Shown: positions 21,901-24,900 of the stretch, piece after piece
How positions within the stretch are numbered: position 1 is the stretch's first letter
How the letters are laid out: each line of letters opens with the position of its first letter
Source: a virus
Lineage: Duplodnaviria; Heunggongvirae; Uroviricota; Caudoviricetes
Direction: 5' to 3' (one strand)
Length of the DNA: 31,691 bases
Virus record (IMG/VR): IMGVR_UViG_2778261559_000026
Position numbers: made by a program

Positions 21901-24900
21901 CAGACGATCCCAAACAGGTGATTCATATCGTTCACAGTTATGATCGTAAAAGCTGCGGTGATCCAGAATGTAAACCTTATCTTTCGCTACACCTAAGATG
22001 GTAGACTCTGCGCGGTCTAATTGCTGGTCAATTCCTGAGCACAAGAAAATCACGTCATCAGGGATATTCTCGATAGAAACATCTGTTTTGAGTTGTTCCA
22101 GTTCATTTGCTTCTACTGCCGTGTCCTGATCGTCGTATACCTTGCCTAATACGGTGTTATAAAATGATTGTAAATCAAAGGATTGCCACGCATGACTAAA
22201 ATCAACCACACAAGCGCGGATCGTGCTGAAAGGTGAATACAGACGACTGATCCAGAATCCGGCTACTTCACTTTCACGGGTTGCTCTCCACTCGCCTTGT
22301 GCTACTGCCCTGATTCGTTCTCCTTCTGTCCATGCGTTCTTACAGTGGGGGCAAATATAACGAGCGGTATCAGGATCGGGTAAGTTCTTACCATCGATGT
22401 TACGCCATTCAAATTGAACGTTTTCCCACTCGATCACCTGGTGTTCCCCGCAATGAGGACACGGAACAAAAAACATACGCATATCGCTTGATAACCATTG
22501 CTGGTTAATGCTTCCCAGCTTACTGGTCGGGGTACTGGATACGACTAATCGACCTTCATCGCCAAAGGTAGTTAAACGGTTAGCAGCCAGTGCCACCGGA
22601 TCACCTTCTTCTGAGGCTGTGGCAGCATCGATTTCGTCAAGCAATCCAACCTTTGCGGTCTTACCGCGTAGGGTTGATGGACTGGTAAGCGATACCATGT
22701 ACAGGAAGTGATTCGTTTTTAACTGGAGTTGGTTATTGTTGTTAACCGCATTACGATCATTCTTGTCTGTAACCACGTCTTTCAATGCATCACATGCTTC
22801 GATAGACGGTCGGATCTTACCCGCGAGATATTGCGACATTTCTTTAGCGGTTGATTGTCCGATAATCATATTGCATGGATCGTTAGCCATCTGGTTAAAC
22901 AGGATACCGTTTAGGATGGTAGTTTTTCCGATCTGCGCACTGGTCATCAGAACATACTTTTTCTTATTCTCAAGGAAAGGAGCATCAATCATGCCTTTCT
23001 GGAATGACAGCAATTTAACTTTATCCCCCGCTTGAGGACCATCTACCAGCACCATATTCGCTTCGCACCATTCAGAAGGAAGGAGTTTAGGCGGTGGCGT
23101 AATATATTTTGCGGCATTTTTAAGAATCTTTTTTAATTTGGCCTTGTTCGAAATCAGTTTCATGTAATTACCCTCATTACGAAATATGAAGGTATTTATT
23201 AAATTGTTGATATTTTGATAAATATGGTATTAAGATTTAAGGGGGTTGTATGCTAATTAATCAGCAAGAAAGAGATGAATTAGAATTAGCCTTGTCTTGT
23301 ACCGATCATGAATATCGTTTGCCAGTCAAGCATAAGCATTTAAAGACTGACTACACAACATCCGGCTTTAGTCGCGAGGAAGCGAAAGAGATTTTAATAG
23401 AGTTTTACCGCGATAATGGTTATAGAGACGTTCGCAACTTCTTTAGCAAGCATCGCACATCACATACAGAGTTTCGGAGAGTCCGAGATTGGTTTGATTT
23501 TGACATTAAGCGGTTTTACAGAATCGACGATGGTCCGATCTATCGGTTGCAATGGAAGCCACTAAGGGAAGTGTTTAAGCATGAAAGGCTAAATCACGCT
23601 GTTACACGCTATCGTAACGAGGCTTTCAAGAAAGGGTATGGTGATACAAGGGAATTGTTCGTTGAACTCGCTAACGTGCGATATAGCCATTATTACAACG
23701 ATCCTAAAGGGTTCTTTGAAGTGCTTCGCAAGGTGGATATTAGTCGAGGTACATACTATTCACGGTTGAGGCAGTACGGGATTAAGGCAGAGTTCTTTAT
23801 GTCGGTTGACGATGGAGAACTTTTTCCTATAAAATGTAAGTCCTCTAAATAAAGGTGAACATTCACTTTAATTTGGAGAAAATGACTATGACTACTAAAG
23901 CTACTCGCGGTCGTCCTTGCCGTTTTGATCGTGAACAACTGGCAGCGATTGTAAAAGCGTACTATCAAGCGCCGAAAGGTAAAGCCGAAAAAGAACAAGT
24001 ATTGAGTGAACACGGTATTTCAATCGCTCAATTCTACAAATCACTCCATAAAGTTGATTTGAAATTCTTTGTTCAGGTTGACGGTGAAATGGTAGAAGCA
24101 ACAGGAATTTGATTCTCTAGGCCAATCCTTCGGGGTTGGCTTTTTTATATCCGCTCAAAACTGAGCACATCTCTAAGTCATTGATTCTTCCGATGAGTCC
24201 AGATTTGGACTGATCTATAGATGCCCTCAAAACTGAGGGGATGTGCTTAAAGTTCAGCGTATCTATCTAAGTGGTTGATTCTTTCGAGAAATTCAAACTT
24301 GAATCAATCGGCGCAAAACTGCGCTCATCTCTAACCTATTGATTCTTCCGATAAATCCAAATCTGGATGCATCAGATACAAAAAAGCCCAGCGCAATTAT
24401 GCGCCGGGCGATTAATCAGATCCCAAAATCAACAAGGGAAATTACGTTACCTGATTCACGAATCTGTTTAGCAGCTTTGTTTTGAATCAGAATAGTGTTA
24501 TTTGGCTGCGGTAGTTTAAGAGTTGCTTTCTGTTCTTCTTCCAAAACGCCCAATTCAACCAGCACCGGAAGAACATCAACAGTAAACTCAAGTTGGTAGT
24601 GAGCATTCATGCGGCAGAAAGACAGAGAAGAGTCATTAGCAACATACCCACACGGCTTGTTATTTTCATCATAGACGCGCTCAATGTATCCAGCAGTACG
24701 TAAGGCCGTCAGTGCTTCTTTAACCTTCGTAGCGCCCTTTTTAGCGCCTAACAGACGTGTCATAGAATGGCTATCTACGGATTTGCGAATGTGTAGCTCA
24801 ATCAGTTTTTTATTTTTGCGTTTTTCATCTAATGCCAGTTCGATCCAATCGGTTTCTTCAAAGTCTGCATACGGGTTAACAGGAGTATTATTGGCGGTTT

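What the first reader, a model, noticed from the sequence alone, without database searches (positions are those of the whole stretch)
24152..24380. Three structured repeats with covarying hairpins, boxed in by convergent terminators
Each ~70-90 bp unit has a short hairpin with a conserved CAAAACTG loop but different compensating stems (GCTC/GAGC, CCCTC/GAGGG, GCGC/GCGC), a TTGATTCTTYCGA box, and a 12-bp near-palindrome (TCCAGATTTGGA, TTCAAACTTGAA, TCCAAATCTGGA). The array lies in a transcription-free pocket between a plus-strand and a minus-strand terminator, as expected for a centromere-like site, packaging or origin element, or multi-site operator. Stem covariation with loop conservation implies selection on structure.
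Basis: seen in the sequence. Interest (0 to 1): 0.65.

Follow-up and report, generated by a model that had tools for sequence, protein, structure and literature searches.

The report
Spare copies of a phage regulator's operator
The three repeats are extra, non-coding copies of a short palindrome-plus-IHF-site element that normally lies inside the coding sequence of Rha/Roi-type phage regulator genes such as the gene next door; related prophages carry from none to seven such modules, so the array is an optional cluster of probable protein-binding sites, not a packaging site, origin or centromere.

Summary
Window 24152-24380 holds three composite units, each made of a 14-16 bp perfect palindrome, a box that is a perfect IHF core consensus on the minus strand, and a second perfect palindrome. 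The units sit between two convergent intrinsic terminators.

The array is not conserved. In this E. coli prophage family the inter-terminator spacer ranges from 14 bp (no array) to 247 bp (about seven modules). This excludes an essential cos, ori or centromere site.

Every module is a near-identical copy of one short segment of the N-terminal DNA-binding-domain coding region of Rha/Roi-family genes. The copies come from different alleles of the adjacent 277-aa gene and match genes in Klebsiella, Pseudomonas, Vibrio and P1-like phages. Inside those genes the same segment is a covarying palindrome, and in Roi-type genes it lies 9-11 bp from an IHF core (HK022 roi, P22 rha, the window's own gene). 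By my recollection of Clerget and Boccard 1996, this is where HK022 Roi and IHF bind.

Best reading: an accessory, rapidly reshuffled bank of Rha/Roi-plus-IHF operator modules. Main rival: neutral recombination debris that collects in a transcription-free pocket. It is a new variant of a known kind and of moderate interest.

The parts
24119..24150 (+). Intrinsic terminator of the 76-aa gene (left wall of the pocket)
   Evidence: 10-bp stem, loop of 4, then a T run. Present in all relatives in two sequence variants.
24153..24166 (.). Palindrome A1, GCTCAAAACTGAGC (Rha-type module, copy of allele b)
   Evidence: With its flanks it matches 21 of 21 nt inside the Rha-like genes of L030 and L035, where it encodes D-V-L-S-F-E-R.
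24174..24186 (-). IHF core consensus AATCAATGACTTA (unit 1)
   Evidence: The B1 palindrome ends 9-10 bp upstream on the minus strand.
24196..24211 (.). Palindrome B1, AGTCCAGATTTGGACT (resembles allele g, GTCCAAATTTGGAC)
   Evidence: The centre is inverted (GATT versus AATC) in relative L027.
24224..24239 (.). Palindrome A2, CCCTCAAAACTGAGGG
   Evidence: The L015 variant ATGCCCTCAATTTTGAGGAGATG matches 23 of 23 nt inside the Pseudomonas phage Alize Rha gene, codons H-A-L-N-F-E-E-M.
24240..24266 (.). Module A2', GATGTGCTTAAAGTTCAGCGTATCTAT (imperfect palindrome)
   Evidence: 25 of 27 nt match the coding strand of a Vibrio phage antirepressor gene, D-V-L-K-V-E-R-I-Y.
24268..24280 (-). IHF core consensus AATCAACCACTTA (unit 2)
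   Evidence: The box and its flank resemble allele c and the Klebsiella and D6 genes, which encode (V/F)-L/V-E-R-I-N-N-L.
24291..24304 (.). Palindrome B2, ATTCAAACTTGAAT
   Evidence: It ends 10 bp from the unit-2 IHF core.
24311..24324 (.). Palindrome A3, GCGCAAAACTGCGC (copy of allele d)
   Evidence: With its flanks it matches 21 of 22 nt inside the Rha-like genes of L041, L029, L027 and L026, where it encodes D-E-R-N-F-A-P.
24332..24344 (-). IHF core consensus AATCAATAGGTTA (unit 3)
24355..24368 (.). Palindrome B3, ATCCAAATCTGGAT
   Evidence: It ends 10 bp from the unit-3 IHF core.
24376..24409 (-). Intrinsic terminator of the Rha/Roi-like gene (right wall of the pocket)
   Evidence: Relatives carry at least three different terminator sequences here.
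24416..25249 (-). 277-aa Rha/Roi-family regulator (allele a), the candidate binding protein
   Evidence: Its N-terminal ~105 aa are 50% identical to HK022 Roi (E 5e-29). It matches PHROG 63 'anti-repressor Ant'. Other alleles of the same gene score as Pfam Phage_pRha.
25040..25074 (-). Intragenic prototype of the element inside the 277-aa gene: palindrome CTGCAACGCAG (25064-25074), then IHF core AATCAATAACTTA (25040-25052)
   Evidence: The arrangement is the same as in HK022 roi.
23882..24112 (+). 76-aa conserved gene whose terminator bounds the array; no evidence that it takes part
   Evidence: No family match. 60-100% identical in relatives whether or not they carry an array.

Best explanation
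The array is a cluster of extragenic copies of a cis element that normally lies inside Rha/Roi-family phage regulator genes.

In those genes, the codons for the segment after the helix-turn-helix form a palindrome whose arms covary between alleles. In Roi-type genes an IHF core site follows 9-11 bp downstream. Each window unit rebuilds this layout on the minus strand: palindrome B, 10 bp, IHF core, 7 bp, palindrome A. Each module is a near-identical copy of the element from a particular allele.

Shown here: the homology of the modules to the gene segment, the shared architecture, the covariation of the intragenic palindrome, and the fact that the array is dispensable and quickly reshuffled.

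Inferred: the modules act on double-stranded DNA as binding sites for dimers of Rha/Roi-type winged-helix proteins together with IHF. The sharp IHF bend would bring the two flanking palindromes together, as reported for Roi and IHF on the HK022 roi gene (recalled from memory). The pocket between two terminators would then hold an accessory operator bank. It could titrate, or respond to, Rha/Roi proteins of the resident element or of other phages in the same cell, or it could act as a protein roadblock between the two convergent operons. It is not needed for packaging, replication or maintenance.
For: Homology of the modules to Rha/Roi genes:
- Short matches of array variants in the phage collection (23-30 nt, 90-100% identity) fall inside genes annotated as Rha, antirepressor, DNA-binding or hypothetical protein in unrelated phages. 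The four hits inspected all lie at codons ~43-81 of an Rha, antirepressor or DNA-binding-protein gene.
- Modules match the adjacent gene's other alleles at 21/21, 21/22, 24/26 and 34/38 nt on the same strand, and map to the same hypervariable patch.

Shared architecture:
- A palindrome 9-11 bp from WATCAANNNNTTR is seen in HK022 roi, P22 rha (4-bp arms, read from the printed sequence, below the 5-bp scan threshold), the Klebsiella and D6 genes and all three window units. The core is present in 74 of 80 Roi-type loci.

Covariation of the intragenic palindrome:
- Roi type: 90.9% of cells paired versus 24-41% in slid controls, 4 of 6 pairs with changes on both sides, score 0.461 versus 0.143 (0 of 500 shuffles).
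- Rha type: 10 pairs, 88.9% paired versus 28-47%, 6 pairs with changes on both sides (0 of 500).

Other support:
- The Ile and Leu codons of the IHF core are ATC and TTA in all 15 distinct Roi-type sequences.
- The copy in L012/L016 spans just the palindrome-to-IHF element of allele a.
- A 100% identical module block is shared by lineages whose 76-aa protein is only 71% identical.
- A similar array lies in an unrelated satellite element in which no Rha gene is annotated.
- Literature: IHF regulates rha, and Rha and Roi block lytic growth in IHF mutants (PMC4936722; Roi called a DNA-binding protein in PMC4587872).
Against: - No binding data could be obtained here. The key statement that Roi binds within its own gene next to an IHF site rests on my memory of Clerget and Boccard 1996, which the library does not hold.
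- The window's array contains no copy of the resident allele's own palindrome, CTGCAACGCAG, so simple autoregulation by the neighbouring protein is not the obvious role.
- Alleles b and g have nearly the same helix-turn-helix sequence but different palindrome arms. This sits uneasily with sequence-specific reading of the arms.
- Many relatives lack the array, and some carry deletion derivatives without the IHF core.
- The intactness of the modules could reflect recent copying from genes where they are under selection. The IHF consensus pattern is equally what the codons R/K-I-N-x-L would give.
Confidence: 0.55

Rival explanations
1. Neutral debris. The pocket between two terminators tolerates insertions. 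Short pieces of Rha-gene alleles have accumulated there through template switching or illegitimate recombination started at palindromes. Hairpin-templated correction keeps the palindromes perfect, and the array has no function.
For: - The spacer ranges from 14 to 247 bp with every intermediate, including truncated modules and deletions that remove the IHF core.
- Only the centre is inverted in some copies (GATT/AATC, AAGT/ACTT), as expected from stem-mediated events.
- Modules mostly come from non-resident alleles.
- The adjacent gene is highly mosaic, 39-100% identical between relatives.
- No extragenic copies lie within 2 kb of 80 lambdoid roi genes.
Against: - Only the element itself (palindrome with or without the IHF box) is ever copied, never other parts of the roughly 830-bp gene.
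- The spacing to the IHF core is kept at 9-10 bp in all units.
- The same kind of array arose in a satellite element in which no Rha gene is annotated.
- Identical blocks are spread across diverged lineages.
Confidence: 0.3
2. The units are structured RNAs (small RNAs, a sponge, or a cis-acting RNA element), and the covarying stems are RNA helices.
For: The sequence folds better than shuffled controls (z = -4.3 as RNA on the minus strand, -5.4 as DNA on the plus strand). The prototype inside the genes is transcribed as part of an mRNA.
Against: - The array lies downstream of strong terminators on both strands, and the scan found no promoter-like site in it.
- No Rfam family matches; only terminator-driven noise appears.
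- By my reading, modules occur in both orientations.
- By my reading of the alignment, G.T and A.C mismatches show no strand bias.
- An IHF site at a fixed distance points to double-stranded DNA.
- The array is absent in many relatives.
Confidence: 0.05
3. It is an essential cis site of the element: cos or pac with IHF-assisted small-terminase sites (like lambda cosB), an iteron origin (like lambda ori), or a partition centromere.
For: - A gpA-type large terminase gene lies about 1 kb away with no adjacent small subunit.
- A bend site flanked by protein sites resembles lambda cosB R3-I1-R2 and P1 parS (from general knowledge).
- Module A2 resembles lambda ori iterons (ATCCCTCAAAACGAGGGA).
- Tandem modules in L015 repeat every 20 bp.
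Against: - 10 of 30 relatives with intact terminase, portal and flanking genes have no array.
- At least 21 of the 55 E. coli genomes with the locus show any array similarity.
- The palindrome arms differ within one array, unlike iterons.
- No Rep, ParA or ParB gene was found.
- In the satellite locus the lambda-type cos site lies elsewhere (7440-7480) than its array (8660-8830).
Confidence: 0.03
4. It is a small mobile or dispersed palindromic repeat family, of the BIME/REP/RIP or MITE kind, that landed between convergent genes.
For: The logic matches E. coli BIME-1/RIP elements: palindromic units flanking an IHF site, mosaic composition, variable copy number, and a position between convergent genes (from general knowledge).
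Against: The array is not dispersed. In 5426 complete E. coli genomes, similarity was found in only 21 genomes, with at most two places per genome and none under an annotated feature. The modules are demonstrably copies of a gene segment. I see no resemblance to the GC-rich REP consensus as I recall it (not tested with a tool).
Confidence: 0.03

Closest known systems
Intragenic Roi-binding site plus IHF site of phage HK022 roi (Clerget and Boccard 1996, recalled from memory), and the IHF-regulated rha genes of phi80 and P22 (Henthorn and Friedman 1995, as cited in PMC4936722)
   Same: The same family of protein is encoded next door (50% identity to the Roi N-terminal domain). The DNA architecture is the same: a short palindrome 9-11 bp from WATCAANNNNTTR. 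The array modules are sequence-homologous to that gene segment.
   Different: The known site is a single copy inside the coding sequence. Here there are three to seven copies outside any gene, between two terminators. They are drawn mostly from non-resident alleles, each IHF site has a second palindrome on its other side, and presence varies between relatives.
E. coli BIME-1 / RIP (RIB) elements (REP - IHF site - REP)
   Same: Palindromic units flanking an IHF site, mosaic and variable composition, and a location between convergently transcribed genes.
   Different: The sequences are unrelated. The units here are 14-24 bp with an AT-rich centre rather than about 35 bp and GC-rich. The array is confined to one locus of one prophage family and is derived from a gene segment.
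Lambda ori iterons (O-protein sites inside gene O)
   Same: Dyad-symmetric sites of about 18 bp that lie inside the coding sequence of the protein that binds them. ITN1, ATCCCTCAAAACGAGGGA, resembles A2, CCCTCAAAACTGAGGG. Tandem spacing is about 20 bp in one relative.
   Different: The centre is one base longer and the arms are heterogeneous. I recognised no O-like initiator and did not look for an AT-rich unwinding region. The array is dispensable. The resemblance is probably convergent.
Lambda cosB (R3 - I1 - R2) and P1 parS (boxes flanking an IHF site)
   Same: An IHF bend is placed between two protein-binding sites so that one protein complex can touch both.
   Different: Those sites are essential, single and conserved. 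This array is optional and variable, and it is unrelated to terminase or ParB.

Membership tests
Rha/Roi intragenic operator element (palindrome + IHF site) | Short palindrome ending 9-11 bp upstream of an IHF core WATCAANNNNTTR | tested here: met
   All three window units: gap of 9-10 bp, arms of 5-6 bp. The same is seen in HK022 roi, the Klebsiella and D6 genes and 47 of 80 Roi-type loci.
Rha/Roi intragenic operator element (palindrome + IHF site) | Sequence homology to the codon ~40-60 segment of Rha/Roi genes | tested here: met
   Identities of 21/21, 21/22, 24/26, 34/38, 24/24 and 23/23 nt to gene alleles and to genes of unrelated phages.
Rha/Roi intragenic operator element (palindrome + IHF site) | Located inside the coding sequence of the regulator gene | tested here: not met
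   The array is intergenic, downstream of the gene's stop codon and terminator. The resident gene has its own copy at 25040-25074.
Rha/Roi intragenic operator element (palindrome + IHF site) | Bound by the Rha/Roi protein, with IHF stabilising the complex | not testable with these tools
   Needs EMSA, footprinting or ChIP. The primary paper is not held.
IHF binding site | Core consensus WATCAANNNNTTR | tested here: met
   Three perfect matches on the minus strand at 24186, 24280 and 24344. By my estimate about one match would be expected by chance in the whole window, on both strands.
IHF binding site | Actual IHF binding and bending | not testable with these tools
   No experimental data are available here.
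cos / pac packaging site | Conserved in all functional relatives that share the terminase | tested here: not met
   Absent in 10 of 30 relatives that keep the terminase, portal and flanking genes.
Iteron replication origin | Several near-identical direct repeats next to an initiator gene | tested here: not met
   The arms differ between modules. No Rep or O-like gene was found. The array is dispensable.
Partition centromere (parS / parC) | Adjacent ParA/ParB-type or ParM/ParR-type genes, and conservation | tested here: not met
   No Par families were found in the window's ORFs. The element is an integrated prophage with a serine integrase.
BIME / REP / RIP repeats | Dispersed at many chromosomal sites | tested here: not met
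   Similarity in only 21 of 5426 genomes, with at most two places per genome.
Known structured RNA family (Rfam) | Match to a covariance model at its gathering score | tested here: not met
   No match at gathering score over the whole window. Only sub-threshold hits driven by the terminators appear at E <= 10.

The most novel reading that the evidence does not exclude
The arrays are decoy or sensor banks of heterologous operators. Each Rha/Roi DNA-binding-domain allele would carry its own cognate palindrome inside its coding sequence, forming a self-contained specificity cassette. This prophage, and independently a PICI-like satellite, would collect operators of other alleles in a silent pocket. 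The collected sites could titrate or detect Rha/Roi proteins made by co-resident or superinfecting phages, making the array a DNA-level device of inter-phage conflict or helper sensing.
Probability: 0.12. Interest if true: 0.8.

Novelty: new variant of a known kind. Interest (0 to 1): 0.55.

Why it matters
Rha/Roi/Ant-type proteins are among the most common and least understood regulators in temperate phages.

Two points here can be tested directly. First, a covarying palindrome, up to 24 bp long, is embedded in the coding sequence of their DNA-binding domain, with reverse-complementary codon pairs such as D/I, A/R, L/E, P/G and S/G. It is seen in phages of E. coli and Salmonella (Roi type) and of Vibrio and Pseudomonas (Rha type). 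The Roi-type genes also carry a fixed-distance IHF site. Second, some mobile elements keep extra copies of this element outside genes, drawn from several alleles.

If the modules are operators, this gives a handle on the DNA specificity of the family. It would also offer an explanation for the old rha/roi 'no growth without IHF' phenotypes, and a possible example of operator decoys between competing phages. If they are debris, the locus is a clean natural record of palindrome-driven short-patch copying and loop inversion.

Tried and rejected
- Near-identity search of the locus in phage and plasmid collections: nothing. The 76-aa protein also has no match in phages.
- Rfam at gathering and at lenient thresholds: nothing relevant.
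- Promoter scan: no promoter-like site inside the array.
- cos site near the gpA-type terminase: rejected because the array is dispensable. The nearest sequenced phage terminase is only 43% identical, so no virion termini can be transferred.
- Lambda ori iterons: checked against the real lambda sequence. The resemblance is limited to one module with a different centre length.
- BIME/MITE-like dispersal: rejected.
- L010/L042, first taken as a distant relative of the array: it turned out to lie in a PICI-like satellite near its right end and separate from its cos site. I kept it as an independent example, not as a homologous locus.
- My first protein alignment for locus retrieval (A1) began with a family-specific peptide and recovered almost only the same prophages. 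I redid it with A2 and A4.
- A conserved-versus-free position test on the IHF cores (9 specified positions invariant, 4 free positions all variable) was considered and dropped. The source codons R/K-I-N-x-L predict the same pattern.
- G.T versus A.C strand bias, as a test of RNA versus DNA: my reading of the alignment showed no bias.
- The primary papers (Henthorn and Friedman 1995; Clerget and Boccard 1996) are not held.
- Solved structures by sequence: none.
- Structure prediction and the metagenome and genome-collection scans were not used.
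Full report
**Context.** The window is a roughly 30-kb prophage-like element of E. coli. It is identical over the sampled genes to IMG/VR contig UViG_2526164662_000045. It carries a large serine integrase at 2537-3949. Tail and head genes, a lambda-family portal and a gpA-type large terminase (21256-23163) lie on the minus strand. To the right come two unknown plus-strand genes of 200 aa and 76 aa, then the array, then a minus-strand 277-aa gene, more small genes, and host hicB. The locus is found in 55 of 5426 complete E. 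coli genomes, always on the chromosome, and in no deposited phage or plasmid.

- The repeat finder gives three copies of a 44-nt core, and units 1 and 3 share 82% identity over 61 nt.
- The box TCTAAnnnnTTGATTCTTYCGA occurs three times exactly, against 0.09 expected.
- Six perfect palindromes of the form N3-CA-N4-TG-N3 lie at 24153, 24197, 24225, 24291, 24311 and 24355. A seventh is part of the right-hand terminator stem. The other ~31 kb of the window holds only five.
- Within the array, 6 palindromes compare with 1.07 +/- 1.03 in dinucleotide shuffles (0 of 500).
- Terminator-like sites face each other at 24119-24142 (+) and 24409-24386 (-).
- Read on the minus strand, each unit is: palindrome B, 9-10 bp, IHF core, 7 bp, palindrome A.

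**The array is dispensable and hypervariable.** I fetched 30 IMG/VR loci that encode the 76-aa protein at 60-100% identity. The DNA between the two terminators ranges from 14-15 bp, with the terminators abutting, in 10 loci, through 44, 61, 70, 92, 121 and 164 bp, up to 247 bp.
- Modules combine freely, with or without the IHF box. One relative has four hairpin modules in tandem at exactly 20 bp.
- An E. coli genome (CP115351) has a single unit.
- At least 21 of the 55 E. coli genomes with the locus show any similarity to the array, and the array sequence turned up in no other genome.
- This rules out an essential packaging site, origin or centromere, and also a dispersed repeat family.
- The 76-aa gene is conserved, while the 277-aa gene is a mosaic (39-100% identity).

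**What the modules are.** A sensitive blastn of concatenated array variants against all phages returned only short hits of 23-30 nt at 90-100% identity. They fall in genes annotated as antirepressor, Rha or DNA-binding protein, or left as hypothetical, in unrelated phages of Pseudomonas, Klebsiella, Vibrio and E. coli (P1-like D6).
- The four hits I inspected all lie at codons ~43-81 of an Rha, antirepressor or DNA-binding-protein gene.
- The hairpin modules correspond to codons such as D-V-L-K-V-E-R-I-Y and H-A-L-N-F-E-E-M. The IHF box corresponds to (V)-L-E-R-I-N-N-L.
- Within the prophage family, the modules match the N-terminal coding region of other alleles of the adjacent gene, on the same strand. 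A1 matches allele b at 21/21 nt (D-V-L-S-F-E-R). A3 matches allele d at 21/22 nt (D-E-R-N-F-A-P). Another module matches allele e at 24/26 nt (H-A-K-F-R-V-I-Y). The B-type palindrome resembles that of allele g (E-S-K-F-G-R). The right end of the L012/L016 arrays matches the window's own allele a at 34/38 nt.
- Only this short gene segment is ever copied.

**The prototype inside the genes.** The window's protein is 50% identical to the N-terminal domain of HK022 Roi (E 5e-29). Alleles b and d score as Pfam Phage_pRha.
- HK022 roi has the palindrome CTGCAtTGCAG, then 11 bp, then the IHF core AATCAATGATTTA.
- The window's gene has CTGCAACGCAG followed by AATCAATAACTTA at the same codons (25040-25074).
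- P22 rha, by my reading of the printed sequence, has a 4-bp-arm palindrome (CGCAttttTGCG, below the scan threshold), then 10 bp, then AATCAATAACTTA.
- Of 80 Roi-type loci, 74 have the IHF core at that position and 47 have a perfect palindrome with arms of at least 5 bp 9-11 bp upstream.
- Across 11 distinct Roi-type alleles the six pairs are 90.9% complementary, against 24-41% when the partner is slid. Four pairs change on both sides (CCTGCA/TGCAGG, CCTCAA/TTGAGG, CCTCCA/TGGAGG, CCCCA/TGGGG). The covariation score is 0.461 against 0.143 in shuffles (0 of 500).
- In 61 distinct Rha-type genes the peptide D-A-L-S-F-E-R-I is written with reverse-complementary codon pairs (GAT/ATC, GCG/CGC, CTC/GAG, and in other alleles CCC/GGG, TCC/GGA, CGC/GCG, CTG/CAG). 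This gives palindromes of up to 24 bp.
- On 28 of these sequences, ten pairs are 88.9% complementary against 28-47% slid, and six pairs change on both sides (0 of 500 shuffles).
- So a nucleic-acid element is selected inside these genes. The array's 'covarying stems' are copies of different alleles of it.

**How it most likely works.** The literature held here says that IHF regulates rha and that Rha blocks phage growth in IHF-defective hosts (PMC4936722). [quoted passage not shown] From memory, Clerget and Boccard (1996) showed that Roi binds a site within its own gene next to an IHF site and that IHF stabilises the complex. I could not retrieve that paper, so this step is a recollection.
- On that basis the array is best read as a bank of operator modules for Rha/Roi-type winged-helix dimers plus IHF, acting on duplex DNA.
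- Supporting points: the fixed spacing to an IHF site, the copy boundaries that coincide with the element, the 100%-identical blocks shared by diverged lineages, and an independent array of the same kind in a PICI-like satellite. That satellite array lies at L042 8660-8830 and reads as FERINGLG, QRNFAL and SCKFAL fragments. It is separate from the satellite's lambda-type cos site, and no Rha gene is annotated in the satellite.
- Points against: the window's array lacks the resident allele's own palindrome, arrays mostly carry non-resident alleles, and alleles with nearly the same helix-turn-helix sequence carry different arms.
- The role could therefore be titration or sensing of heterologous Rha/Roi proteins, or a roadblock. 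Or there may be no role at all.

**Rivals.**
- Neutral debris is the serious rival. The pocket tolerates any insert. Deletion derivatives and centre-only inversions (GATT/AATC, AAGT/ACTT) show active palindrome-mediated rearrangement. No extragenic copies accompany 80 lambdoid roi genes.
- An RNA role is unlikely. The array sits behind terminators on both strands, the scan found no promoter-like site in it, and no Rfam family matches. By my reading the modules occur in both orientations and show no wobble-pair strand bias. The strong folding z-scores simply reflect the palindromes.
- The resemblance of one module to lambda ori iterons is real but limited.

**Verdict.** The closest known thing is the single intragenic Roi/IHF site of HK022. 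This is an extragenic, multi-allelic, variable-copy version of it, so I class it as a new variant of a known kind. The homology of the modules to the gene segment is well supported. That the modules bind protein at this location remains an inference.

Noticed in passing
window 25040-25074; also L048 4786-4820 (HK022 roi), L241 ~39815-39850 (P22 rha), L161-L240: Rha/Roi-family genes carry a covarying palindrome inside the coding sequence of their DNA-binding domain, written with reverse-complementary codon pairs (D/I, A/R, L/E, P/G, S/G, R/A, L/Q). It reaches 24 bp in some genes. In Roi-type genes an IHF core follows 9-11 bp downstream, with ATC and TTA codons fixed in all 15 distinct sequences.
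   Followed up: yes
L042 8640-8930 (E. coli CP070066) and L010 5230-5390: A PICI-like satellite (primase, SSB, capsid, decoration protein, AlpA-like HTH, lambda-type cos at 7440-7480, small terminase) carries its own non-coding array of Rha/Roi-type modules near its right end. No Rha gene is annotated in it.
   Followed up: partly
L042 9158-9946 and flanks: The satellite sits directly next to a lambdoid major capsid gene that lacks its N-terminus and is followed by FI and tail genes. It therefore seems to be integrated into a helper-type prophage's capsid gene. Part of this region matches 4338 of 5426 E. coli genomes, with up to 12 places per genome.
   Followed up: no
window 23164-23249 (IHF core, minus strand, 23200-23212); relatives L012-L041 near position 2330: The divergent intergenic region between the large terminase gene and the 200-aa gene holds a conserved IHF core, (A/T)ATCAACAA(T/C)TTA. 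In most relatives the palindrome AATACCCGTATT lies 8 bp upstream of it. This is a candidate control region, or even the cos region, of the element.
   Followed up: no
window 24416-25249 and the homologous genes in L012-L041: The N-terminal DNA-binding domain of the 277-aa gene exists in at least nine or ten alleles (Roi-like and several Rha-like) joined to a more conserved C-terminal part. The variation looks like that of a specificity or immunity determinant.
   Followed up: partly
arrays of L014, L026, L027 (window 24197-24210 and 24245-24258): The 4-nt centres of two palindromes are inverted between relatives while the arms stay put (GATT/AATC, AAGT/ACTT), even where the arms are imperfect. 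This is a signature of stem-mediated loop inversion.
   Followed up: partly
window 26084-27394: A 1.3-kb stretch has no ORF of 70 aa or more and the lowest G+C of the window (0.36-0.37). It lies between the 155-aa and 318-aa genes. No replication, repressor or lysis genes were recognised anywhere in the element.
   Followed up: no
window 12100-14490: Part of the 1142-aa tail-fibre gene is 79-87% identical at the DNA level to the distal long tail fibre gene (gp37-like) of T-even E. coli and Yersinia phages. This suggests a horizontally exchanged receptor-binding module.
   Followed up: no
window 6050-6823: An ORF of 257 aa resembling a homing endonuclease (PHROG 314) sits among the tail genes.
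   Followed up: no
window 16414-16504: ARAGORN calls a 91-nt tRNA-Glu(ttc) with the anticodon at position 40, inside the span of a 167-aa minus-strand ORF. This is probably a false positive or an odd tRNA-like sequence.
   Followed up: no
L001 17203-17511 versus L002 16219-16623: Related elements are integrated at different chromosomal sites: next to a truncated hicB in one genome and next to a truncated ycdX near tRNA-Ser in another. The element carries a large serine integrase.
   Followed up: no
window 23250-23852 and 23882-24112: The 200-aa and 76-aa proteins end in similar C-terminal motifs (ISRGTYYSRLRQYGIKAEFFMSVDDGE versus ISIAQFYKSLHKVDLKFFVQVDGE) and have no family match. Given their position, divergent from the large terminase gene, they could be packaging or DNA-binding proteins.
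   Followed up: no
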